From: an uncultured Acidiferrobacteraceae bacterium | GTDB taxonomy: Bacteria > Pseudomonadota > Gammaproteobacteria > Arenicellales > UBA868 | DNA length: 47,569 nt | Assembly: GCA_964512815.1 (NCBI GenBank) | Contig: CAZEKE010000068.1 | Coordinates: forward strand, 1 to 47,569 | Direction of reading: 5' to 3' | Part shown: positions 9,996-25,392 of the stretch, one piece after another | How positions within the stretch are numbered: position 1 is the first letter of the stretch | Layout: every line of letters begins with the position of its first letter | Translations under genes and position numbers: made by a program | The notes under the pieces: generated by a model | What the model was told of the DNA's origin: nothing | The model's input: only the letters and a program-made list of their open reading frames with translations | The model's database searches: none

Positions 9996-10175
9996 ATGGA
10001 GTTAATAGATTGTCTTGACTGGAGACAGAAAAAAATAGGTCTAGATTCATCGCGTTGTTCTAAGTGTGGTGATATACTAGTGGATAAGCCAGAGAAAATT
10101 GATGGGCGCTACTATTGTATAGACTGCGCCATTGGTGTCCTCATAAGAAAAAGGAATAACTATGGAGAGATTTGA
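9996..10175 (+). CDS. 59-aa zinc-ribbon protein (not in ORF track)
   Basis: MELIDCLDWRQKKIGLDSSRCSKCGDILVDKPEKIDGRYYCIDCAIGV... with CxxC...CxxC. Confidence 0.5.
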   Translation: MELIDCLDWRQKKIGLDSSRCSKCGDILVDKPEKIDGRYYCIDCAIGVLIRKRNNYGEI

Positions 10176-10362
10176 GAAATCCGCAGAGGTAGCGGAGTTC
10201 TTGGAGAGCATGTTCGGTCGCACTACAGCCATCGAGAATGAAAAGTGTGTCAGTTGTAAGGAAGATATACGAGATTTTCGAGATGATTTAAGTAAGCGAG
10301 AGTATGCTATATCAGGACTCTGCCAGCAATGCCAAGATGGGGTATTCGGTGCAGGTTCTTGA
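10162..10362 (+). CDS. 66-aa zinc-ribbon protein
   Basis: CVSC...CQQC pairs. Overlaps its neighbours by a few nt. Confidence 0.55.
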   Translation: MERFEKSAEVAEFLESMFGRTTAIENEKCVSCKEDIRDFRDDLSKREYAISGLCQQCQDGVFGAGS

Positions 10363-11131
10363 CCTGTTCAGTGGTATAGGTGGGTTCAGTCTTGGCTTAA
10401 AGCGGGCAGGTATGGAGACTATCGGATTCTGTGAGATAGACCCATTCTGCCGCAAGGTATTAACCAAGCACTGGCCCGATGTTCCAATTCATACAGATAT
10501 AAGGGGATTAGATGGCAAAGACTACAAAGGACGGGCTGAAATTATATGCGGGGGTTTTCCGTGCCAGCCCTTCTCTCAAGCAGGGAAGCGAAGAGGCACA
10601 GAAGATGACCGTCACCTCTGGCCTGAGATGCTTAGAGTCATTTCGGAGGTCAGGCCCACTTGGGTTATTGGAGAGAACGTTATTGGGTTCGTCAAAATGG
10701 AACTCGACTCGGTGCTTTCTGATCTGGAAAGAGAAGGCTACCAAACAAGGGCGTTCATTATTCCAGCTTGCGGTGTCGATGCCCCGCACAAAAGAGATAG
10801 GGTCTGGATTATTGCACACGCCAACGGCGAAGGGGAATCAGATGGCCCCATCAATGAAGGACCGAGACCCAGGCAGTTGGAACTTATGGCCTACTCCCTC
10901 AGCAAACGAGGATGCAGCAGGGACACCAAACGGCAAGATGCAAAAAATGTTGGGCAACCATCCAGATGTGAGGGGGACAACTCCAGAAGAGTGGAAACGT
11001 GGAACCCTGAACCCGGCGTGGGTCGAGTGGCTAATGGGGTTTCCAATCGGGTGGACAGAGTTAAAGGATTAGGTAACGCAGTTGTACCTATGGTAGTAGA
11101 AGTAATCGGTAACGCAATAATGGAGATCTAA
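10337..11131 (+). CDS. DNA (cytosine-5)-methyltransferase
   Basis: Motif I LDLFSGIGGFSLG, motif IV GGFPCQPFSQAG, motif VI IGENV, motif VIII QTRAFIIPA..APHKRDRVWIIA, motif X GLGNAVVPMVV. ATG 10337 is preferred over 10304 because the latter overlaps the previous gene. Confidence 0.85.
   Translation: MGYSVQVLDLFSGIGGFSLGLKRAGMETIGFCEIDPFCRKVLTKHWPDVPIHTDIRGLDGKDYKGRAEIICGGFPCQPFSQAGKRRGTEDDRHLWPEMLRVISEVRPTWVIGENVIGFVKMELDSVLSDLEREGYQTRAFIIPACGVDAPHKRDRVWIIAHANGEGESDGPINEGPRPRQLELMAYSLSKRGCSRDTKRQDAKNVGQPSRCEGDNSRRVETWNPEPGVGRVANGVSNRVDRVKGLGNAVVPMVVEVIGNAIMEI
10512..11072 (+). other. 186-codon +1-frame ORF embedded in the methyltransferase gene, with its own TRD/motif IX-like sequence
   Basis: Translation contains SSKWNSTRCFLIWK, LFQLAVSMPRT, GLLHTPTA, LWPTPSANED and LNPAWVEWLMGFPIGWT. 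See findings. Confidence 0.35.
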
Positions 11132-23713: not shown

Positions 23714-23857
23714 ATGGAAGACTATGAGCTTCAACAGGAAGATAGGAGAATCGAGTTGAGAATGTACAAAGTTCGTTGGATATGGTATCATACCATACTA
23801 GGAGTGGAACTAGCCGCAGTATTTTTAGTACTTGTAGGTATATATCTAAAACTATGA
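23714..23857 (+). CDS. 47-aa protein with C-terminal TM helix (not in track)
   Basis: MEDYELQQEDRRIELRMYKVRWIWYHTILGVELAAVFLVLVGIYLKL. ATGA overlap with the next gene. Confidence 0.4.
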   Translation: MEDYELQQEDRRIELRMYKVRWIWYHTILGVELAAVFLVLVGIYLKL

Positions 23858-25392
23858 CCAGTCTAACTGTTGGGATGGCGACATATGAAGACTATGATGG
23901 GGTCTACTTCTCTGTTCAGGCGCTACGATTGTACCACCCTGAAGTTATGGACCAGGTTGAAATACTTGTAATTGATAATTGTCCAGATGGAAAGCATGGT
24001 AAAGAAGTAAAGAAGTTTATGGAGGATAATGTACCTAATGGTAGATATATCCCATTTACAGAATACGAAAGTTGTTTTGTTAAGGGTCAGGTATTTGAAC
24101 AAGCGAGAAGTGATTATGTTCTATGTATAGACTGTCATGTCATGCTGGCCCCAGGATCACTTAAACAGTTGATTAGTTACTATACAGCCTTTCCCAATAC
24201 TAAAGATCTAATACAGGGACCACTCATACATGAAGATCTTATAGGGTACTCAACTCATTTAAATATGGAATGGCAGAATCAAGCATATGGACACTGGGCA
24301 ACAGATGAAAATTTATTAAAATCTGGAGAAGCATTTGAGATACCTGCTATGGGATGTGGAATCTTCTCCTGTAAGAAAGAACATTGGCCTGGATTCCACC
24401 CGCTCCTTCGAGGATTTGGAGGAGAAGAATTTTACCTACATGAGAAGTTCAGACAAAGGGGTGGTCGTGCGTTGTGTCTTCCTTTTCTAAAGTGGCTCCA
24501 TAGATTTGGAAGACCTGAAGGAGTTAAGTATCTTATAGACATGCATTGCAAGGCTAGAAATTTTATGATAGGTTGGATGGAACTATACAAAGATAAGAAC
24601 CACCCCATGATACGTTCAATCATTGACCACTTTACAGAGTGGAACTATACGAGAGAGGAATTAGAGCGTCTTCTAGACAATGTTATAGAAGAAATGGACT
24701 CTAATGTATTACATGTTACGTCACTTGAAGAAAAATTTACTGACATTTATAAGTCTAAAAAGTGGGGTAACAAGGATACTCTATCTGGAAGCGGATCAAG
24801 ACTAGACCAAACTAAGAAGTGTATTGTAGAGTTACCAAAGCTCTTAAAAGATTACAAAATAAAATCACTATTGGATGCTCCATGCGGAGACTTCTTCTGG
24901 ATGGAGAAGGTAAAGTTAGGTAATACTAAGTACATTGGAGCAGACATTGTTCCTGATATTATCACAAACAACAAACAGTATGAAACTAAGAACAAGTCTT
25001 TTAGACAACTAGACATAACTAAAGATGATCTGCCGAAAGTAGATCTTATACTGGTACGAGATTGCCTTGTCCATCTAACACATGAAGATATCATGAATTT
25101 TATAGATAACCTTTCTAGATCAGATATAAAATATTTACTTACTACCACATTTCCAGATAGGGACCACAATCCCAAGATAAGTACTGGGAATTGGAGACCA
25201 CTAAACTTACAAATACCGCCATTCTCTCTCCCTGAACCGATAAAAATAATTAATGAGGGATGTACAGAATCTGGCGGAATATATAAAGACAAGTCCTTGG
25301 GACTTTGGAGAATAGAAGACCTTATTAAGGAGAAAGAATATGAAATACCAGGCACTCAAGGCCCGATACAAAGCAGAAGTAGCGATAGCTAA
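23854..25392 (+). CDS. fusion protein: family 2 glycosyltransferase-like domain plus class I SAM methyltransferase-like domain
   Basis: N-terminal VGMATYEDYDGVYFSVQAL, LVIDNCPDG, VLCIDCHV (GT-A/DxD-like). C-terminal SLLDAPCGDFFWM and LILVRDCLVHL (SAM-binding motifs I and post-I). Confidence 0.65.
   Translation: MTSLTVGMATYEDYDGVYFSVQALRLYHPEVMDQVEILVIDNCPDGKHGKEVKKFMEDNVPNGRYIPFTEYESCFVKGQVFEQARSDYVLCIDCHVMLAPGSLKQLISYYTAFPNTKDLIQGPLIHEDLIGYSTHLNMEWQNQAYGHWATDENLLKSGEAFEIPAMGCGIFSCKKEHWPGFHPLLRGFGGEEFYLHEKFRQRGGRALCLPFLKWLHRFGRPEGVKYLIDMHCKARNFMIGWMELYKDKNHPMIRSIIDHFTEWNYTREELERLLDNVIEEMDSNVLHVTSLEEKFTDIYKSKKWGNKDTLSGSGSRLDQTKKCIVELPKLLKDYKIKSLLDAPCGDFFWMEKVKLGNTKYIGADIVPDIITNNKQYETKNKSFRQLDITKDDLPKVDLILVRDCLVHLTHEDIMNFIDNLSRSDIKYLLTTTFPDRDHNPKISTGNWRPLNLQIPPFSLPEPIKIINEGCTESGGIYKDKSLGLWRIEDLIKEKEYEIPGTQGPIQSRSSDS

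What the first reader, a model, noticed from the sequence alone, without database searches (positions are those of the whole stretch)
10512..11072. Methyltransferase gene carries a second 186-codon reading frame that itself looks like a C5-MTase target-recognition/motif IX module
Frame A (10337-11131) is an uninterrupted C5-MTase with motifs I, IV, VI, VIII and X, ending ...WNPEPGVGRVANGVSNRVDRVKGLGNAVVP. The +1 frame (10512-11072) is also stop-free for 186 codons. It reads ...SGLRCLESFRRSGPLGLLERTLLGSSKWNSTRCFLIWKEKATKQGRSLFQLAVSMPRTKEIGSGLLHTPTAKG...NLWPTPSANED...LNPAWVEWLMGFPIGWTELKD. From memory, the repeated (L/W)PTPxAxD elements and L-x-P-x-(F/W)-V-E-W-(L/M)-M-G-x-P-x-G-W-T are the variable-region and motif IX signatures of many phage C5-MTases. 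They are the counterpart of LTxRExARLQGFPD and normally sit between motif VIII and motif X. Here the same nucleotides (11007-11057) encode both this motif IX-like string and frame A's VGRVANGVSNRVDR. GLLHTP likewise overlaps RVWIIAHA. The frame B stop (TAG 11070-11072) lies immediately before frame A's GLGNAVVP. Three readings are possible: an overprinted second gene, frameshift isoforms with a different specificity module, or a frozen relic of a frameshift that created the short MTase type.
Basis: partly seen in the sequence, partly recalled or inferred. Interest (0 to 1): 0.75.

Follow-up and report, generated by a model that had tools for sequence, protein, structure and literature searches.

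The report
Nested second subunit inside phage methyltransferase gene
This phage cytosine-methyltransferase gene holds a second, conserved gene in its +1 reading frame that supplies the missing motif IX and DNA-recognition part, an arrangement proven once (E. coli M.EcoHK31I) but here found in tens of thousands of phage genes where it is rarely annotated.

Summary
Frame A (10337-11131, "alpha") is a C5-methyltransferase with motifs I-VIII and X but no motif IX. Its VIII-X segment is an 80-residue stretch predicted to be disordered. Frame B (10512-11072, +1, "beta", 186 aa) has its own Shine-Dalgarno and ATG. It belongs to a very large protein family: at least 39,404 clusters at 50% identity, and PHROG 1008.

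Beta carries PTPxAxD recognition modules and the motif IX string LNPxWVEWLMGFPxGWT. In about 97% of relatives chosen only by alpha's N-terminus, the +1 frame is open and carries motif IX. These include Mycobacterium, Paenibacillus, Lacticaseibacillus and P22-like Salmonella phages.

Synonymous variation in alpha is suppressed only where beta overlaps. Among pairs with the same amino acid, the identical-codon fraction is 0.58-0.75 in the overlap and 0.35 outside it. Between motifs VIII and X only the beta frame is conserved as protein.

The best explanation is a two-polypeptide enzyme. Alpha is the catalytic core plus motif X. The nested beta provides the recognition domain and motif IX. This is the architecture shown biochemically for M.EcoHK31I. 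Frameshift isoforms, a frozen relic and sequencing error are not supported.

Verdict: new member of a known kind. What is new is how widespread the arrangement is, and that the recognition domain sits in beta.

The parts
10337..11131 (+). alpha gene (frame A): C5-cytosine methyltransferase large subunit, 264 aa. An upstream ATG at 10304 would give 275 aa.
   Evidence: ORF. Pfam PF00145 at 1.4e-46, but only profile positions 2-169 of 324. PHROG 363 at 1.5e-85, full length. Aligns to M.HhaI residues 13-174. In the AF2 model, residues 1-165 and 247-264 are confident. Foldseek matches M.HhaI, M.HaeIII and DNMT1 over about 163 columns.
10358..10387 (+). alpha motif I (LDLFSGIGGF), the AdoMet-binding motif. 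It lies outside the overlap.
   Evidence: Translation. These columns are invariant in A3. Synonymous codons vary freely here.
10550..10576 (+). alpha motif IV (GGFPCQPFS, catalytic Cys). The same bases encode beta residues about 14-22.
10670..10681 (+). alpha motif VI (GENV), dual-coded with beta.
10787..10816 (+). alpha motif VIII (HKRDRVWIIA), dual-coded with beta ...KEIGSGLLHT.
10832..11074 (+). alpha linker between motifs VIII and X (residues 166-246). It is kept stop-free but is not conserved as protein and is predicted to be disordered.
   Evidence: AF2 pLDDT 27-52 with no secondary structure. Across homologues the alpha-frame similarity score is 41, about the same as the non-coding +2 frame (38), against 70 for the beta frame. 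Alpha has 0 stops per 100 codons here; the +2 frame has 5.2.
11066..11089 (+). alpha motif X (GLGNAVVP), followed by the C-terminal helix to 11128.
   Evidence: AF2 pLDDT 91-92. Synonymous variation returns to background after the beta stop.
10512..11072 (+). beta gene (frame B, +1): nested small subunit, 186 aa, lying entirely inside alpha.
   Evidence: ORF. 1,797 homologues. PHROG 1008. 39,404 cluster representatives at E<=1e-3. The nested position is conserved.
10501..10506 (+). Shine-Dalgarno-like AAGGGG, 5 nt upstream of the beta ATG at 10512.
   Evidence: Sequence. An ATG preceded by an SD-like motif (AGGAG, GGAGG, GAGG and the like) sits at the equivalent position, 26-37 codons before the conserved KMT Met, in most homologous loci.
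10605..10607 (+). Nearly invariant internal Met of beta (M32, in KMTxTSG), a possible alternative start. GAAGAGG at 10590-10596 lies 8 nt upstream.
   Evidence: M32 is invariant in A1 and at least 90% conserved in A2. Upstream GAGG is seen in most loci. M.EcoHK31I beta also uses internal Met starts (PMC2836561).
10605..10805 (+). beta N-terminal half (residues about 32-98), overprinted on alpha motifs IV-VIII. Inferred to be the alpha-binding part.
   Evidence: Synonymous-codon identity in alpha rises from 0.345 to 0.582 here, for example Leu CTC 47/48 and Ala GCT 49/49. In the set chosen without reference to beta it is 0.457 against 0.364. The role is inferred from N-terminal deletions of M.EcoHK31I beta.
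10806..11006 (+). beta variable / target-recognition region (GLLHTPTAKG ... NLWPTPSANEDAAGTPNGKMQKMLGNHPDVRGTTPEEWKRGT).
   Evidence: PTPxAxD modules vary in number across the family. This is the only frame conserved as protein in this stretch. The cassette is swapped in the closest relative, L009.
11007..11057 (+). beta motif IX (LNPAWVEWLMGFPIGWT), dual-coded with alpha EPGVGRVANGVSNRVD.
   Evidence: Most of these columns are invariant or nearly invariant. In relative L139 the same string is in frame with motif X and maps to Pfam PF00145 profile positions 277-322. Synonymous-codon identity is 0.71-0.75. This is the only stretch with 90% nucleotide identity to E. coli prophage genes.

Best explanation
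The locus encodes a two-polypeptide DNA (cytosine-5) methyltransferase from one stretch of DNA read in two frames.

- **Alpha** (10337-11131) is translated in frame A. It forms the AdoMet-binding and catalytic large domain (motifs I-VIII). A long unstructured tether then leads back to the motif X helix.
- **Beta** (10512-11072) is translated independently from its own SD and ATG in the +1 frame. It supplies what alpha lacks:
  - an N-terminal half that probably docks onto alpha;
  - a variable recognition region built of PTPxAxD modules;
  - motif IX (LNPxWVEWLMGFPxGWT), which in single-chain enzymes sits just before motif X.

The two chains are proposed to assemble into an active, sequence-specific enzyme. 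No restriction enzyme is evident beside the gene, so it would be an orphan methyltransferase that protects phage DNA from host restriction.

Shown here:
- both frames are open;
- both frames are under purifying selection;
- the nested arrangement is conserved across a very large family;
- alpha lacks motif IX and a folded small domain;
- beta carries motif IX.

Inferred from the M.EcoHK31I precedent:
- beta is translated separately;
- the two chains form a heterodimer;
- both are needed for activity;
- the beta N-terminal half binds alpha.
For: 1. Not chance. 0 of 20,000 synonymous shuffles reach even 150 open +1 codons, and about 7.8 stops are expected.

2. Beta is a real protein family. There are 1,797 hits with best E 1e-87, PHROG 1008, and 39,404 / 22,478 / 2,958 cluster representatives at E<=1e-3 / 1e-10 / 1e-30.

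3. The nesting is conserved.
   - Among the loci retrieved with beta in which a motif IX match was found, 80 of 84 keep alpha open across the whole beta ORF. The +2 frame is typically open for only 2-17 codons.
   - Of 72 complete alpha genes retrieved only by alpha's N-terminal 60 aa, about 70 carry motif IX in the +1 frame just upstream of motif X. This is 66 by regex plus 4 variants read by eye. The count is 3 in the alpha frame and 1 in the +2 frame.
   - The same arrangement occurs in cultured phages: C72C1, Paenibacillus Lilo and Bloom, Mycobacterium Rhynn and Zerg, Lacticaseibacillus R23.9 and Salmonella S9-5.

4. Selection acts on the beta frame. Among pairs with the same amino acid, the identical-codon fraction in alpha is:
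   - 0.345 in motifs I-III (no overlap);
   - 0.582 in motifs IV-VIII (overlap);
   - 0.747 just before motif X (overlap);
   - 0.349 after the beta stop.
   In the set chosen without reference to beta the values are 0.364 / 0.457 / 0.711 / 0.366.

5. Between motifs VIII and X, the beta frame scores 70, alpha 41 and the non-coding +2 frame 38. Alpha nevertheless has no stops there.

6. Most beta ORFs have an ATG with an SD-like motif at the same position. In the window this is AAGGGG-N5-ATG.

7. Alpha aligns to M.HhaI only over residues 13-174. In the AF2 model residues 166-246 are disordered and the motif X helix is confident. Foldseek matches only about half of M.HhaI.

8. In L139 the same LNPDWVEWLMGYPISWTD string is in frame with motif X and maps to Pfam profile positions 277-322.

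9. There is a biochemical precedent. M.EcoHK31I beta is encoded entirely within alpha in another frame and carries motif IX. [quoted passage not shown]
Against: - There is no direct evidence here that beta is translated or binds alpha.
- Beta alone gives no Pfam, NCBIfam or PDB sequence hit.
- The AF2 model of beta alone is poor (pLDDT 56.5).
- A Pfam scan of an artificial A-B-A chimera did not extend the PF00145 match past motif VIII. For the window's own sequence, the motif IX assignment therefore rests on the motif pattern and on transfer from L139.
- Sequence homology to M.EcoHK31I itself could not be tested.
- Published descriptions place the M.EcoHK31I recognition domain in alpha. Here it appears to be in beta.
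- A few relatives (L028, L046, L061) have a stop in alpha's linker while beta is intact. The model does not explain this.
Confidence: 0.85

Rival explanations
1. Beta is a genuine, separately translated, conserved protein, but its job is not to complete the methyltransferase. It might, for example, be a regulator or an anti-restriction factor that merely shares DNA with the gene.
For: Beta has no significant match to any curated methyltransferase model. The AF2 model of beta alone is of low confidence.
Against: Beta's most conserved element is a typical motif IX placed exactly where motif IX belongs, just upstream of motif X. Alpha lacks that element and lacks a folded small domain. The nested pair co-occurs in about 97% of relatives. 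The M.EcoHK31I precedent also argues against it.
Confidence: 0.07
2. Programmed ribosomal frameshifting makes fusion isoforms: alpha I-VIII joined to frame B, or an A-B-A double shift. Frame B would then be used only as an internal segment.
For: An A-B-A splice would read like a canonical single-chain enzyme. GUUAAAG at 11060-11066 is close to a -1 slippery heptamer.
Against: Beta ORFs start 26-37 codons upstream of the conserved KMT Met, before motif IV, with their own SD and ATG. Beta's N-terminal half, which overlaps motifs IV-VIII, is itself under selection. That would be pointless if ribosomes entered frame B only after motif VIII. No conserved +1 shift site was seen. Two programmed shifts in one gene would be needed. 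M.EcoHK31I makes separate polypeptides. No systematic search for slippery sites was done.
Confidence: 0.05
3. Frame B is a non-functional relic or a by-product of composition: an old frameshift, or GC-rich sequence that happens to stay open.
For: The gene is GC-richer than the phage (50% against 41%). An antisense ORF is also open.
Against: Synonymous shuffles never reproduce the open frame. The +2 frame is closed. The frame has stayed open, with protein-level conservation, across relatives that share only 35-50% identity and infect hosts in different phyla. Synonymous variation is suppressed. The antisense ORF follows from depletion of TTA, CTA and TCA codons in the overlap, and it is open in only 13 of 27 loci.
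Confidence: 0.02
4. Assembly or sequencing indels have broken a single-chain A-B-A gene.
For: A few metagenomic relatives do show single indels (L086, L160, L018).
Against: Frame A is uninterrupted here. The identical two-frame layout recurs in more than 100 independent assemblies and in isolate phage genomes.
Confidence: 0.01

Closest known systems
M.EcoHK31I (E. coli HK31, YGGCCR), an alpha/beta C5-methyltransferase (Lee, Kam & Shaw 1995; Fung et al. 2006; described in PMC2836561 and PMC3404938)
   Same: Alpha carries motifs I-VIII and X. Beta (176 aa there, 186 aa here) is encoded entirely inside the alpha gene in another reading frame and carries motif IX. Internal Met codons of beta can serve as starts. 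The N-terminal part of beta is needed for association with alpha.
   Different: M.EcoHK31I belongs to a restriction-modification system; this gene is an apparent orphan in a phage. The literature places the recognition domain of M.EcoHK31I in alpha. Here the conserved recognition-like modules are in beta, and alpha's VIII-X segment is an unconserved, disordered tether.
M.AquI (Agmenellum quadruplicatum, CYCGRG), an alpha/beta C5-methyltransferase (Karreman & de Waard 1990, via PMC3404938)
   Same: A natural two-polypeptide C5-methyltransferase. The recognition region and motif IX are supplied by the small subunit.
   Different: In M.AquI the split is linear. Alpha holds motifs I-VIII and half of the variable region; beta holds the rest plus motifs IX and X. 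Here motif X stays on alpha and beta is fully nested in the +1 frame.
Monomeric C5-methyltransferases (M.HhaI, M.HaeIII; Pfam PF00145)
   Same: Alpha has the same large-domain fold and motifs I-VIII and X. Beta's LNPxWVEWLMGFPxGWT fits the motif IX pattern and sits just upstream of motif X on the DNA.
   Different: The monomeric enzymes are one chain in one frame, with the recognition domain and motif IX between motifs VIII and X. Here that segment of the enzyme is read from the +1 frame as a separate protein.
Engineered split C5-methyltransferases (fragment complementation of M.HhaI, M.SssI, M.BspRI; PMC3404938, PMC2836561)
   Same: They show that a catalytic fragment and a separate fragment carrying the recognition domain and motif IX can assemble into an active enzyme.
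   Different: Those are artificial constructs. The genes are not overlapping.

Membership tests
C5-cytosine DNA methyltransferase (PF00145), alpha chain | Motifs I (FxGxGG), IV (PCQ), VI (ENV) and VIII (RxR) in one chain with the AdoMet-methyltransferase fold | tested here: met
   Pfam 1.4e-46 covering profile positions 2-169. TIGR00675 at 1.2e-35. Aligns to M.HhaI residues 13-174. AF2 and Foldseek agree.
C5-cytosine DNA methyltransferase (PF00145), alpha chain | Motif X (GNAV) at the C-terminus | tested here: met
   GLGNAVVP at residues 244-251. L245, G246 and N247 are invariant in A3 and A248, V249 and V250 are at least 90% conserved. The helix is confidently modelled. PHROG 363 matches over the full length. 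Pfam itself does not reach this region.
C5-cytosine DNA methyltransferase (PF00145), alpha chain | Recognition domain and motif IX between motifs VIII and X in the same chain | tested here: not met
   The alpha frame has no motif IX string. Residues 166-246 are disordered and are no more conserved than a non-coding frame. Among relatives, motif IX is in the alpha frame in 3 of 72 and in the +1 frame in about 70 of 72.
M.EcoHK31I-type nested alpha/beta C5-methyltransferase | The small-subunit ORF lies entirely within the large-subunit gene, on the same strand, in another frame | tested here: met
   10512-11072 lies inside 10337-11131 in the +1 frame. The arrangement is conserved in relatives.
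M.EcoHK31I-type nested alpha/beta C5-methyltransferase | The small subunit carries motif IX | tested here: met
   LNPAWVEWLMGFPIGWT: most of these columns are invariant or at least 90% conserved in A1 and A2. The same string in L139 maps to PF00145 profile positions 277-322 in frame with motif X. Caveat: the window's beta alone gives no Pfam or PDB hit.
M.EcoHK31I-type nested alpha/beta C5-methyltransferase | Recognition domain located on alpha, as the literature describes for M.EcoHK31I | tested here: not met
   Only the beta frame is conserved between motifs VIII and X. Cassette swaps are readable as PTPxAxD modules in beta. The alpha linker is disordered.
M.EcoHK31I-type nested alpha/beta C5-methyltransferase | Both polypeptides are made and both are required for methylation | not testable with these tools
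   This needs expression and biochemistry. Indirect support: beta has its own SD and ATG, and both frames are under purifying selection.
M.EcoHK31I-type nested alpha/beta C5-methyltransferase | Sequence homology to M.EcoHK31I alpha and beta | not tested
   Lee et al. 1995 (PMC306636) is not held. No M.EcoHK31I sequence is available in the collections. The E. coli search found only prophage homologues.
M.AquI-type linear split C5-methyltransferase | The small subunit carries both motifs IX and X, and the ORFs overlap only at their ends | tested here: not met
   Motif X is in alpha, after the beta stop. Beta is fully nested.
Programmed ribosomal frameshift gene | A conserved slippery site, and a downstream frame that lacks its own initiation signals | tested here: not met
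   Beta has a conserved SD and ATG upstream of motif IV. Its N-terminal half is under selection. No systematic scan for slippery sites was done.

The most novel reading that the evidence does not exclude
The 'short' C5-methyltransferases that are routinely annotated as single genes in phages and prophages are, as a class, obligate two-subunit enzymes. This covers PHROG 363 paired with PHROG 1008 and tens of thousands of sequence clusters, including mycobacteriophages, P22-like phages, and Lactobacillus and Paenibacillus phages.

On this reading, the whole specificity module (recognition domain plus motif IX) is encoded by an overprinted +1 gene, and alpha is a catalytic chassis without specificity of its own. 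Recognition cassettes would be exchanged between phages while both frames stay open.

That would make this one of the largest and oldest conserved same-strand overlapping gene pairs known. It would also mean that the small subunit carries the recognition domain, not only motif IX as described for M.EcoHK31I. The probability given is for this being both true and not yet described at family scale.
Probability: 0.45. Interest if true: 0.65.

Novelty: new member of a known kind. Interest (0 to 1): 0.5.

Why it matters
**Annotation.** Gene callers and curators report only alpha. This is true of the window's source contig and of the Mycobacterium, Salmonella and Lacticaseibacillus phage records. Occasionally both ORFs are labelled 'DNA cytosine methyltransferase' without comment, as in Paenibacillus phage Bloom. 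In the E. coli prophage homologue examined, the locus carries an internal stop and is marked as a pseudogene.

**Experiments.** Cloning alpha's protein sequence from a codon-optimised synthetic gene would destroy beta. On this model the result would be an inactive or non-specific enzyme. This matters for phage methylome studies and for engineering.

**Specificity prediction.** Predictions for these enzymes should read the +1 frame.

**Evolution.** The family is a very large natural data set of long (150-300 codon) same-strand dual coding that includes catalytic motifs. It is useful for studying how two proteins co-evolve on one DNA sequence.

Tried and rejected
- **Near-DNA searches against phage records.** No match for the gene or for 24 kb of the window.
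- **Pfam and NCBIfam on beta.** Nothing.
- **Beta family profile against PDB sequences.** Only noise.
- **Artificial chimeras.** An 83-aa 'beta C-terminus plus alpha motif X' chimera found nothing in PDB. Pfam on an A-B-A chimera did not extend beyond motif VIII. HMM-level proof of motif IX for the window's own sequence therefore failed. I relied instead on L139, where motifs IX and X are in frame.
- **AF2 of beta alone.** pLDDT 56.5. This is too poor for a fold search, so none was run.
- **Lee et al. 1995.** The paper is not held, and the supplement of PMC2836561 is not held either. Homology to M.EcoHK31I remains untested.
- **E. coli genome search.** It found only a 60-nt match (window 11007-11066) in prophage dcm-like genes. 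The one examined carries an internal stop and is annotated as a pseudogene.
- **Cluster look-up.** It gave no informative names for beta proteins.
- **PDB entry 3g7u (prophage CP-933R methyltransferase).** Considered as a possible solved relative, but it is only distantly similar.
- **Literature searches.** Searches for a family-wide description of nested methyltransferase subunits in phages found none in the held library.
- **Antisense ORF 10508-10819.** Rejected as a feature in its own right.
Full report
**1. The observation**

- Frame A runs 10337-11131. An upstream ATG at 10304 is also possible. It encodes a 264-aa protein with motif I (LDLFSGIGGF), motif IV (GGFPCQPFS), motif VI (GENV), motif VIII (HKRDRVWIIA) and motif X (GLGNAVVP).
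- Frame B is the +1 frame. It is open from ATG 10512 to TAG 11070-11072, 186 codons. It reads ...GLLHTPTAKG...NLWPTPSANEDAAGTPNGKMQKMLGNHPDVRGTTPEEWKRGTLNPAWVEWLMGFPIGWTELKD.
- Nucleotides 11007-11057 encode LNPAWVEWLMGFPIGWT in frame B and EPGVGRVANGVSNRVD in frame A.
- One correction: the TAG overlaps the Leu-Gly codons of GLGN and does not precede them.

**2. The open frame is not chance**

- I shuffled synonymous codons within frame A 20,000 times. This keeps the protein, the codon usage and the composition unchanged. The longest +1 open run averaged 67 codons and never exceeded 149.
- About 7.8 stops are expected across the 186 codons, and none of 5,000 shuffles had zero.
- The +2 frame of the same gene is open for at most 37 codons.
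- The gene is GC-richer than the window (50.4% against 41.1%). That composition alone gives P of about 1e-4.

**3. Frame B is a real and very large protein family**

- The frame B translation finds 1,797 proteins at E<=1e-3 (best 1e-87). Most are 180-310 aa and have no Pfam domain.
- It matches PHROG 1008, labelled 'DNA methyltransferase', at 3.5e-27. Frame A matches PHROG 363 at 1.5e-85.
- A profile of 100 members finds cluster representatives among 1.84 billion proteins as follows: 39,404 at E<=1e-3, 22,478 at E<=1e-10 and 2,958 at E<=1e-30.
- The family consensus has these parts:
  - an N-terminus MTQxDLF...PGSxEAxKMTxTSG;
  - a conserved W.ST.C.LTWK...RLLFQL.PSMPRT block;
  - a variable number of (M/L)WPTPxAxD modules;
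  - a nearly invariant G.LNP.WVEWLMG(F/Y)P.GWT(D/E)L.

**4. The nested arrangement is the rule in this clade**

- In every locus I opened, both frames are open and alpha carries motifs IV, VI and X. These were phage C72C1, Paenibacillus phages Lilo and Bloom, an NCBI metagenome contig, a Mu-like JGI contig and Tara contigs.
- Phage Bloom already has both ORFs deposited as 'DNA cytosine methyltransferase' (BLOOM_56 and BLOOM_57).
- Among the loci retrieved with beta in which a motif IX match was found (76 IMG/VR loci plus the eight opened earlier), 80 of 84 keep alpha open over the whole beta ORF. The third frame is typically open for only 2-17 codons.
- To avoid circularity I retrieved 80 more loci using only alpha's N-terminal 60 residues, which lie outside the overlap.
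  - Of 72 complete alpha genes with motif X, about 70 have a motif IX string in the +1 frame within 50 codons upstream of X. This is 66 by regex plus 4 RMG(Y/F)P variants read by eye. The count is 3 in the alpha frame and 1 in the +2 frame.
  - The median +1 open length is 231 codons, against 57 for the +2 frame.
- Cultured phages in which only alpha is annotated show the same nested ORF: Mycobacterium phages Rhynn gp83 and Zerg gp69, Lacticaseibacillus phage R23.9 and the P22-like Salmonella phage S9-5.
- The exceptions are informative.
  - L086, L160 and L018 carry single indels or stops.
  - L028, L046 and L061 have one stop in alpha's linker.
  - In L139 motif IX has moved into the alpha frame.

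**5. Both frames are under selection**

I built a codon alignment of 50 non-redundant alpha genes. For pairs of sequences with the same amino acid, I counted how often the codon was also identical. I repeated the count on the 71 genes chosen without reference to beta.

| Region of alpha | Overlaps beta? | 50 genes | 71 genes |
|---|---|---|---|
| Motifs I-III | no | 0.345 | 0.364 |
| Motifs IV-VIII | yes | 0.582 | 0.457 |
| 22 codons before motif X | yes | 0.747 | 0.711 |
| Motif X, after the beta stop | no | 0.349 | 0.366 |

- Single columns are striking: Leu CTC 47/48, Leu CTC 46/46, Ala GCT 49/49, Asp GAC 46/46. In motifs I and X all synonymous codons are used.
- Between motifs VIII and X the mean pairwise BLOSUM62 score is 70 in the beta frame, 41 in the alpha frame and 38 in the non-coding +2 frame. 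Alpha nevertheless has 0 stops per 100 codons there, against 5.2 in the +2 frame.
- In the variable region, therefore, the protein under selection is beta. Alpha is merely kept open so that it can reach motif X.

**6. Beta has its own start**

- In most loci an ATG lies 26-37 codons (mode 31-32) upstream of the conserved KMT methionine. It sits in alpha's variable loop between motifs III and IV. An SD-like motif (AGGAG, GGAGG, GAGG and the like) lies 3-18 nt upstream.
- In the window this is AAGGGG (10501-10506), five bases, then ATG 10512.
- The near-invariant internal Met (10605) has GAAGAGG 8 nt upstream and could be a second start. Internal starts were observed for M.EcoHK31I beta.

**7. 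What each chain contributes**

- Alpha matches PF00145 only over profile positions 2-169 of 324. It matches M.HhaI only over residues 13-174.
- The AF2 model of alpha was built with 63 homologues.
  - Residues 1-165 are confident (pLDDT mostly 84-97), apart from the catalytic loop.
  - Residues 166-246 have no structure (pLDDT 27-52).
  - The motif X helix at 247-264 is confident (pLDDT 91-92).
- Foldseek aligns the alpha model to M.HhaI, M.HaeIII and DNMT1 over about 163 columns. That is only the large domain.
- The stretch W222-R241 of alpha is highly conserved yet predicted to be disordered. This is what is expected if its conservation is imposed by beta's motif IX.
- In relative L139, LNPDWVEWLMGYPISWTD is followed in the same frame by ...RLMALGNSVVP. 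Pfam then covers profile positions 2-322, and the C-terminal fragment alone maps to positions 277-322. This identifies the string as motif IX.
- The closest relative (L009, IMG/VR) is nearly identical in alpha and beta. The exception is the cassette PSANEDAAG...EEWKR, which is replaced by a different PTPxAxD-containing cassette, with both frames still open. This fits recognition-module exchange.
- AF2 of beta alone is of low confidence. That is uninformative, though compatible with a subunit that folds on its partner.

**8. Comparison with what is known**

- The literature held here states that nearly all characterised C5-methyltransferases are monomers, with two exceptions.
  - In M.AquI, alpha holds motifs I-VIII and beta holds motifs IX-X.
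  - In M.EcoHK31I, alpha holds motifs I-VIII, motif X and the predicted recognition domain. Beta holds motif IX only.
[quoted passage not shown] Both chains are needed, internal Met codons of beta can initiate, and N-terminal deletions of beta weaken association with alpha (PMC2836561).
- The window's gene has the same architecture.
- It differs in three ways:
  - it is an apparent orphan in a phage;
  - the recognition-like modules are in beta;
  - direct homology to M.EcoHK31I could not be tested.
- I found no paper in the held library that describes this arrangement as a family-wide property of phage methyltransferases. That library is incomplete.

**9. Rival explanations**

- *Frameshift isoforms.* These are disfavoured because beta begins upstream of motif IV with its own SD and ATG. 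Its N-terminal half is also under selection.
- *Relic or composition effect.* This is contradicted.
- *Sequencing error.* This is contradicted by recurrence in more than 100 independent assemblies and in isolate genomes.
- *Beta is real but does not act as a methyltransferase subunit.* This cannot be excluded without biochemistry. It is unlikely given motif IX and the fact that alpha lacks it.

**10. Context**

- The window is a phage genome fragment from an ENA metagenome assembly (ERZ27257972). It encodes a terminase, portal, primase/helicase, DNA polymerase and ribonucleotide reductase.
- The methyltransferase sits among small ORFs on the + strand, and no restriction enzyme is evident nearby.
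- The source annotation calls only alpha. The exact beta sequence is absent from the 15-billion-protein collection.
- The antisense ORF 10508-10819 is in the exact reverse-complement phase of alpha's codons. It follows from depletion of TTA, CTA and TCA codons in the dual-coded stretch (0.98 against 3.28 per 100 codons). It is open in only 13 of 27 loci.

**11. Verdict**

- The locus is a new member of a known kind: a nested-subunit C5-methyltransferase of the M.EcoHK31I type.
- What goes beyond the precedent is the scale, with tens of thousands of clusters across phages of several bacterial phyla, almost never annotated as a two-gene enzyme. The evidence that the small subunit carries the recognition region also goes beyond it.
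- Interest is moderate (0.5).

Noticed in passing
window 23776-25392 (+): A 538-aa ORF whose C-terminal part (residues 321-512) matches PHROG 3382 'methyltransferase'. The phage may therefore carry a second DNA-modification gene.
   Followed up: no
window 10508-10819 (-): This 103-codon antisense ORF is in the exact reverse-complement phase of alpha's codons. It stays open because TTA, CTA and TCA codons are depleted in the dual-coded stretch (0.98 against 3.28 per 100 codons). It is open in only 13 of 27 homologous loci, so it is a by-product.
   Followed up: yes
window 10337-11131: The gene's GC content is 50.4% (52.4% in the beta part), against 41.1% for the window and 41-43% in the flanks. 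The cause could be horizontal acquisition or the demands of dual coding.
   Followed up: partly
L009 1281-2213 (IMGVR_UViG_3300025277_001730) compared with window 10337-11131: In the closest relative, alpha and beta are almost identical to the window's except for one swapped cassette in the variable region. Both frames remain open in the new cassette. This suggests recombinational exchange of dual-coded recognition modules.
   Followed up: partly
L028, L046, L061 (IMG/VR loci): Alpha has a single stop inside the VIII-X linker while beta is intact and motif X is still readable downstream. These could be pseudogenes, assembly errors or a three-piece enzyme. This is unexplained.
   Followed up: no
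L139 1798-2850: A relative in which motif IX (LNPDWVEWLMGYPISWTD) is in the alpha frame, contiguous with motif X. The +1 frame still carries the PTPxAxD modules but then stops. It could be an intermediate layout or an indel.
   Followed up: partly
L170 350-1063, L171 350-1063, L172 344-1195, L173 523-1257: Mycobacterium phages Rhynn gp83 and Zerg gp69, Lacticaseibacillus phage R23.9 and Salmonella phage S9-5 all contain the nested +1 ORF ending in a motif IX string. Only the alpha CDS is annotated in these records.
   Followed up: yes
L169 3367-4128 (E. coli PCP07014 prophage): A dcm-like prophage gene annotated by PGAP as a pseudogene with an internal stop. The stop hits both frames at the same place. 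The only stretch detectable by blastn from the window is the 60-nt motif IX segment, at 90% identity.
   Followed up: partly
L006 2938-3866 and many beta homologues: The common beta C-terminal tail ...KPSE(M/T)PSSRKSxKSS is simply the +1 reading of alpha's motif X (ALGNAVVPQV). It appears when the Leu codon of LGN is not TTA or CTA. In the window the TTA creates beta's TAG stop.
   Followed up: partly
window 9996-10175 and 10162-10362 (+): Two small Cys-rich ORFs (CxxC...CxxC) lie immediately upstream. The second matches PHROG 19722 (unknown function) and overlaps the start of alpha.
   Followed up: no
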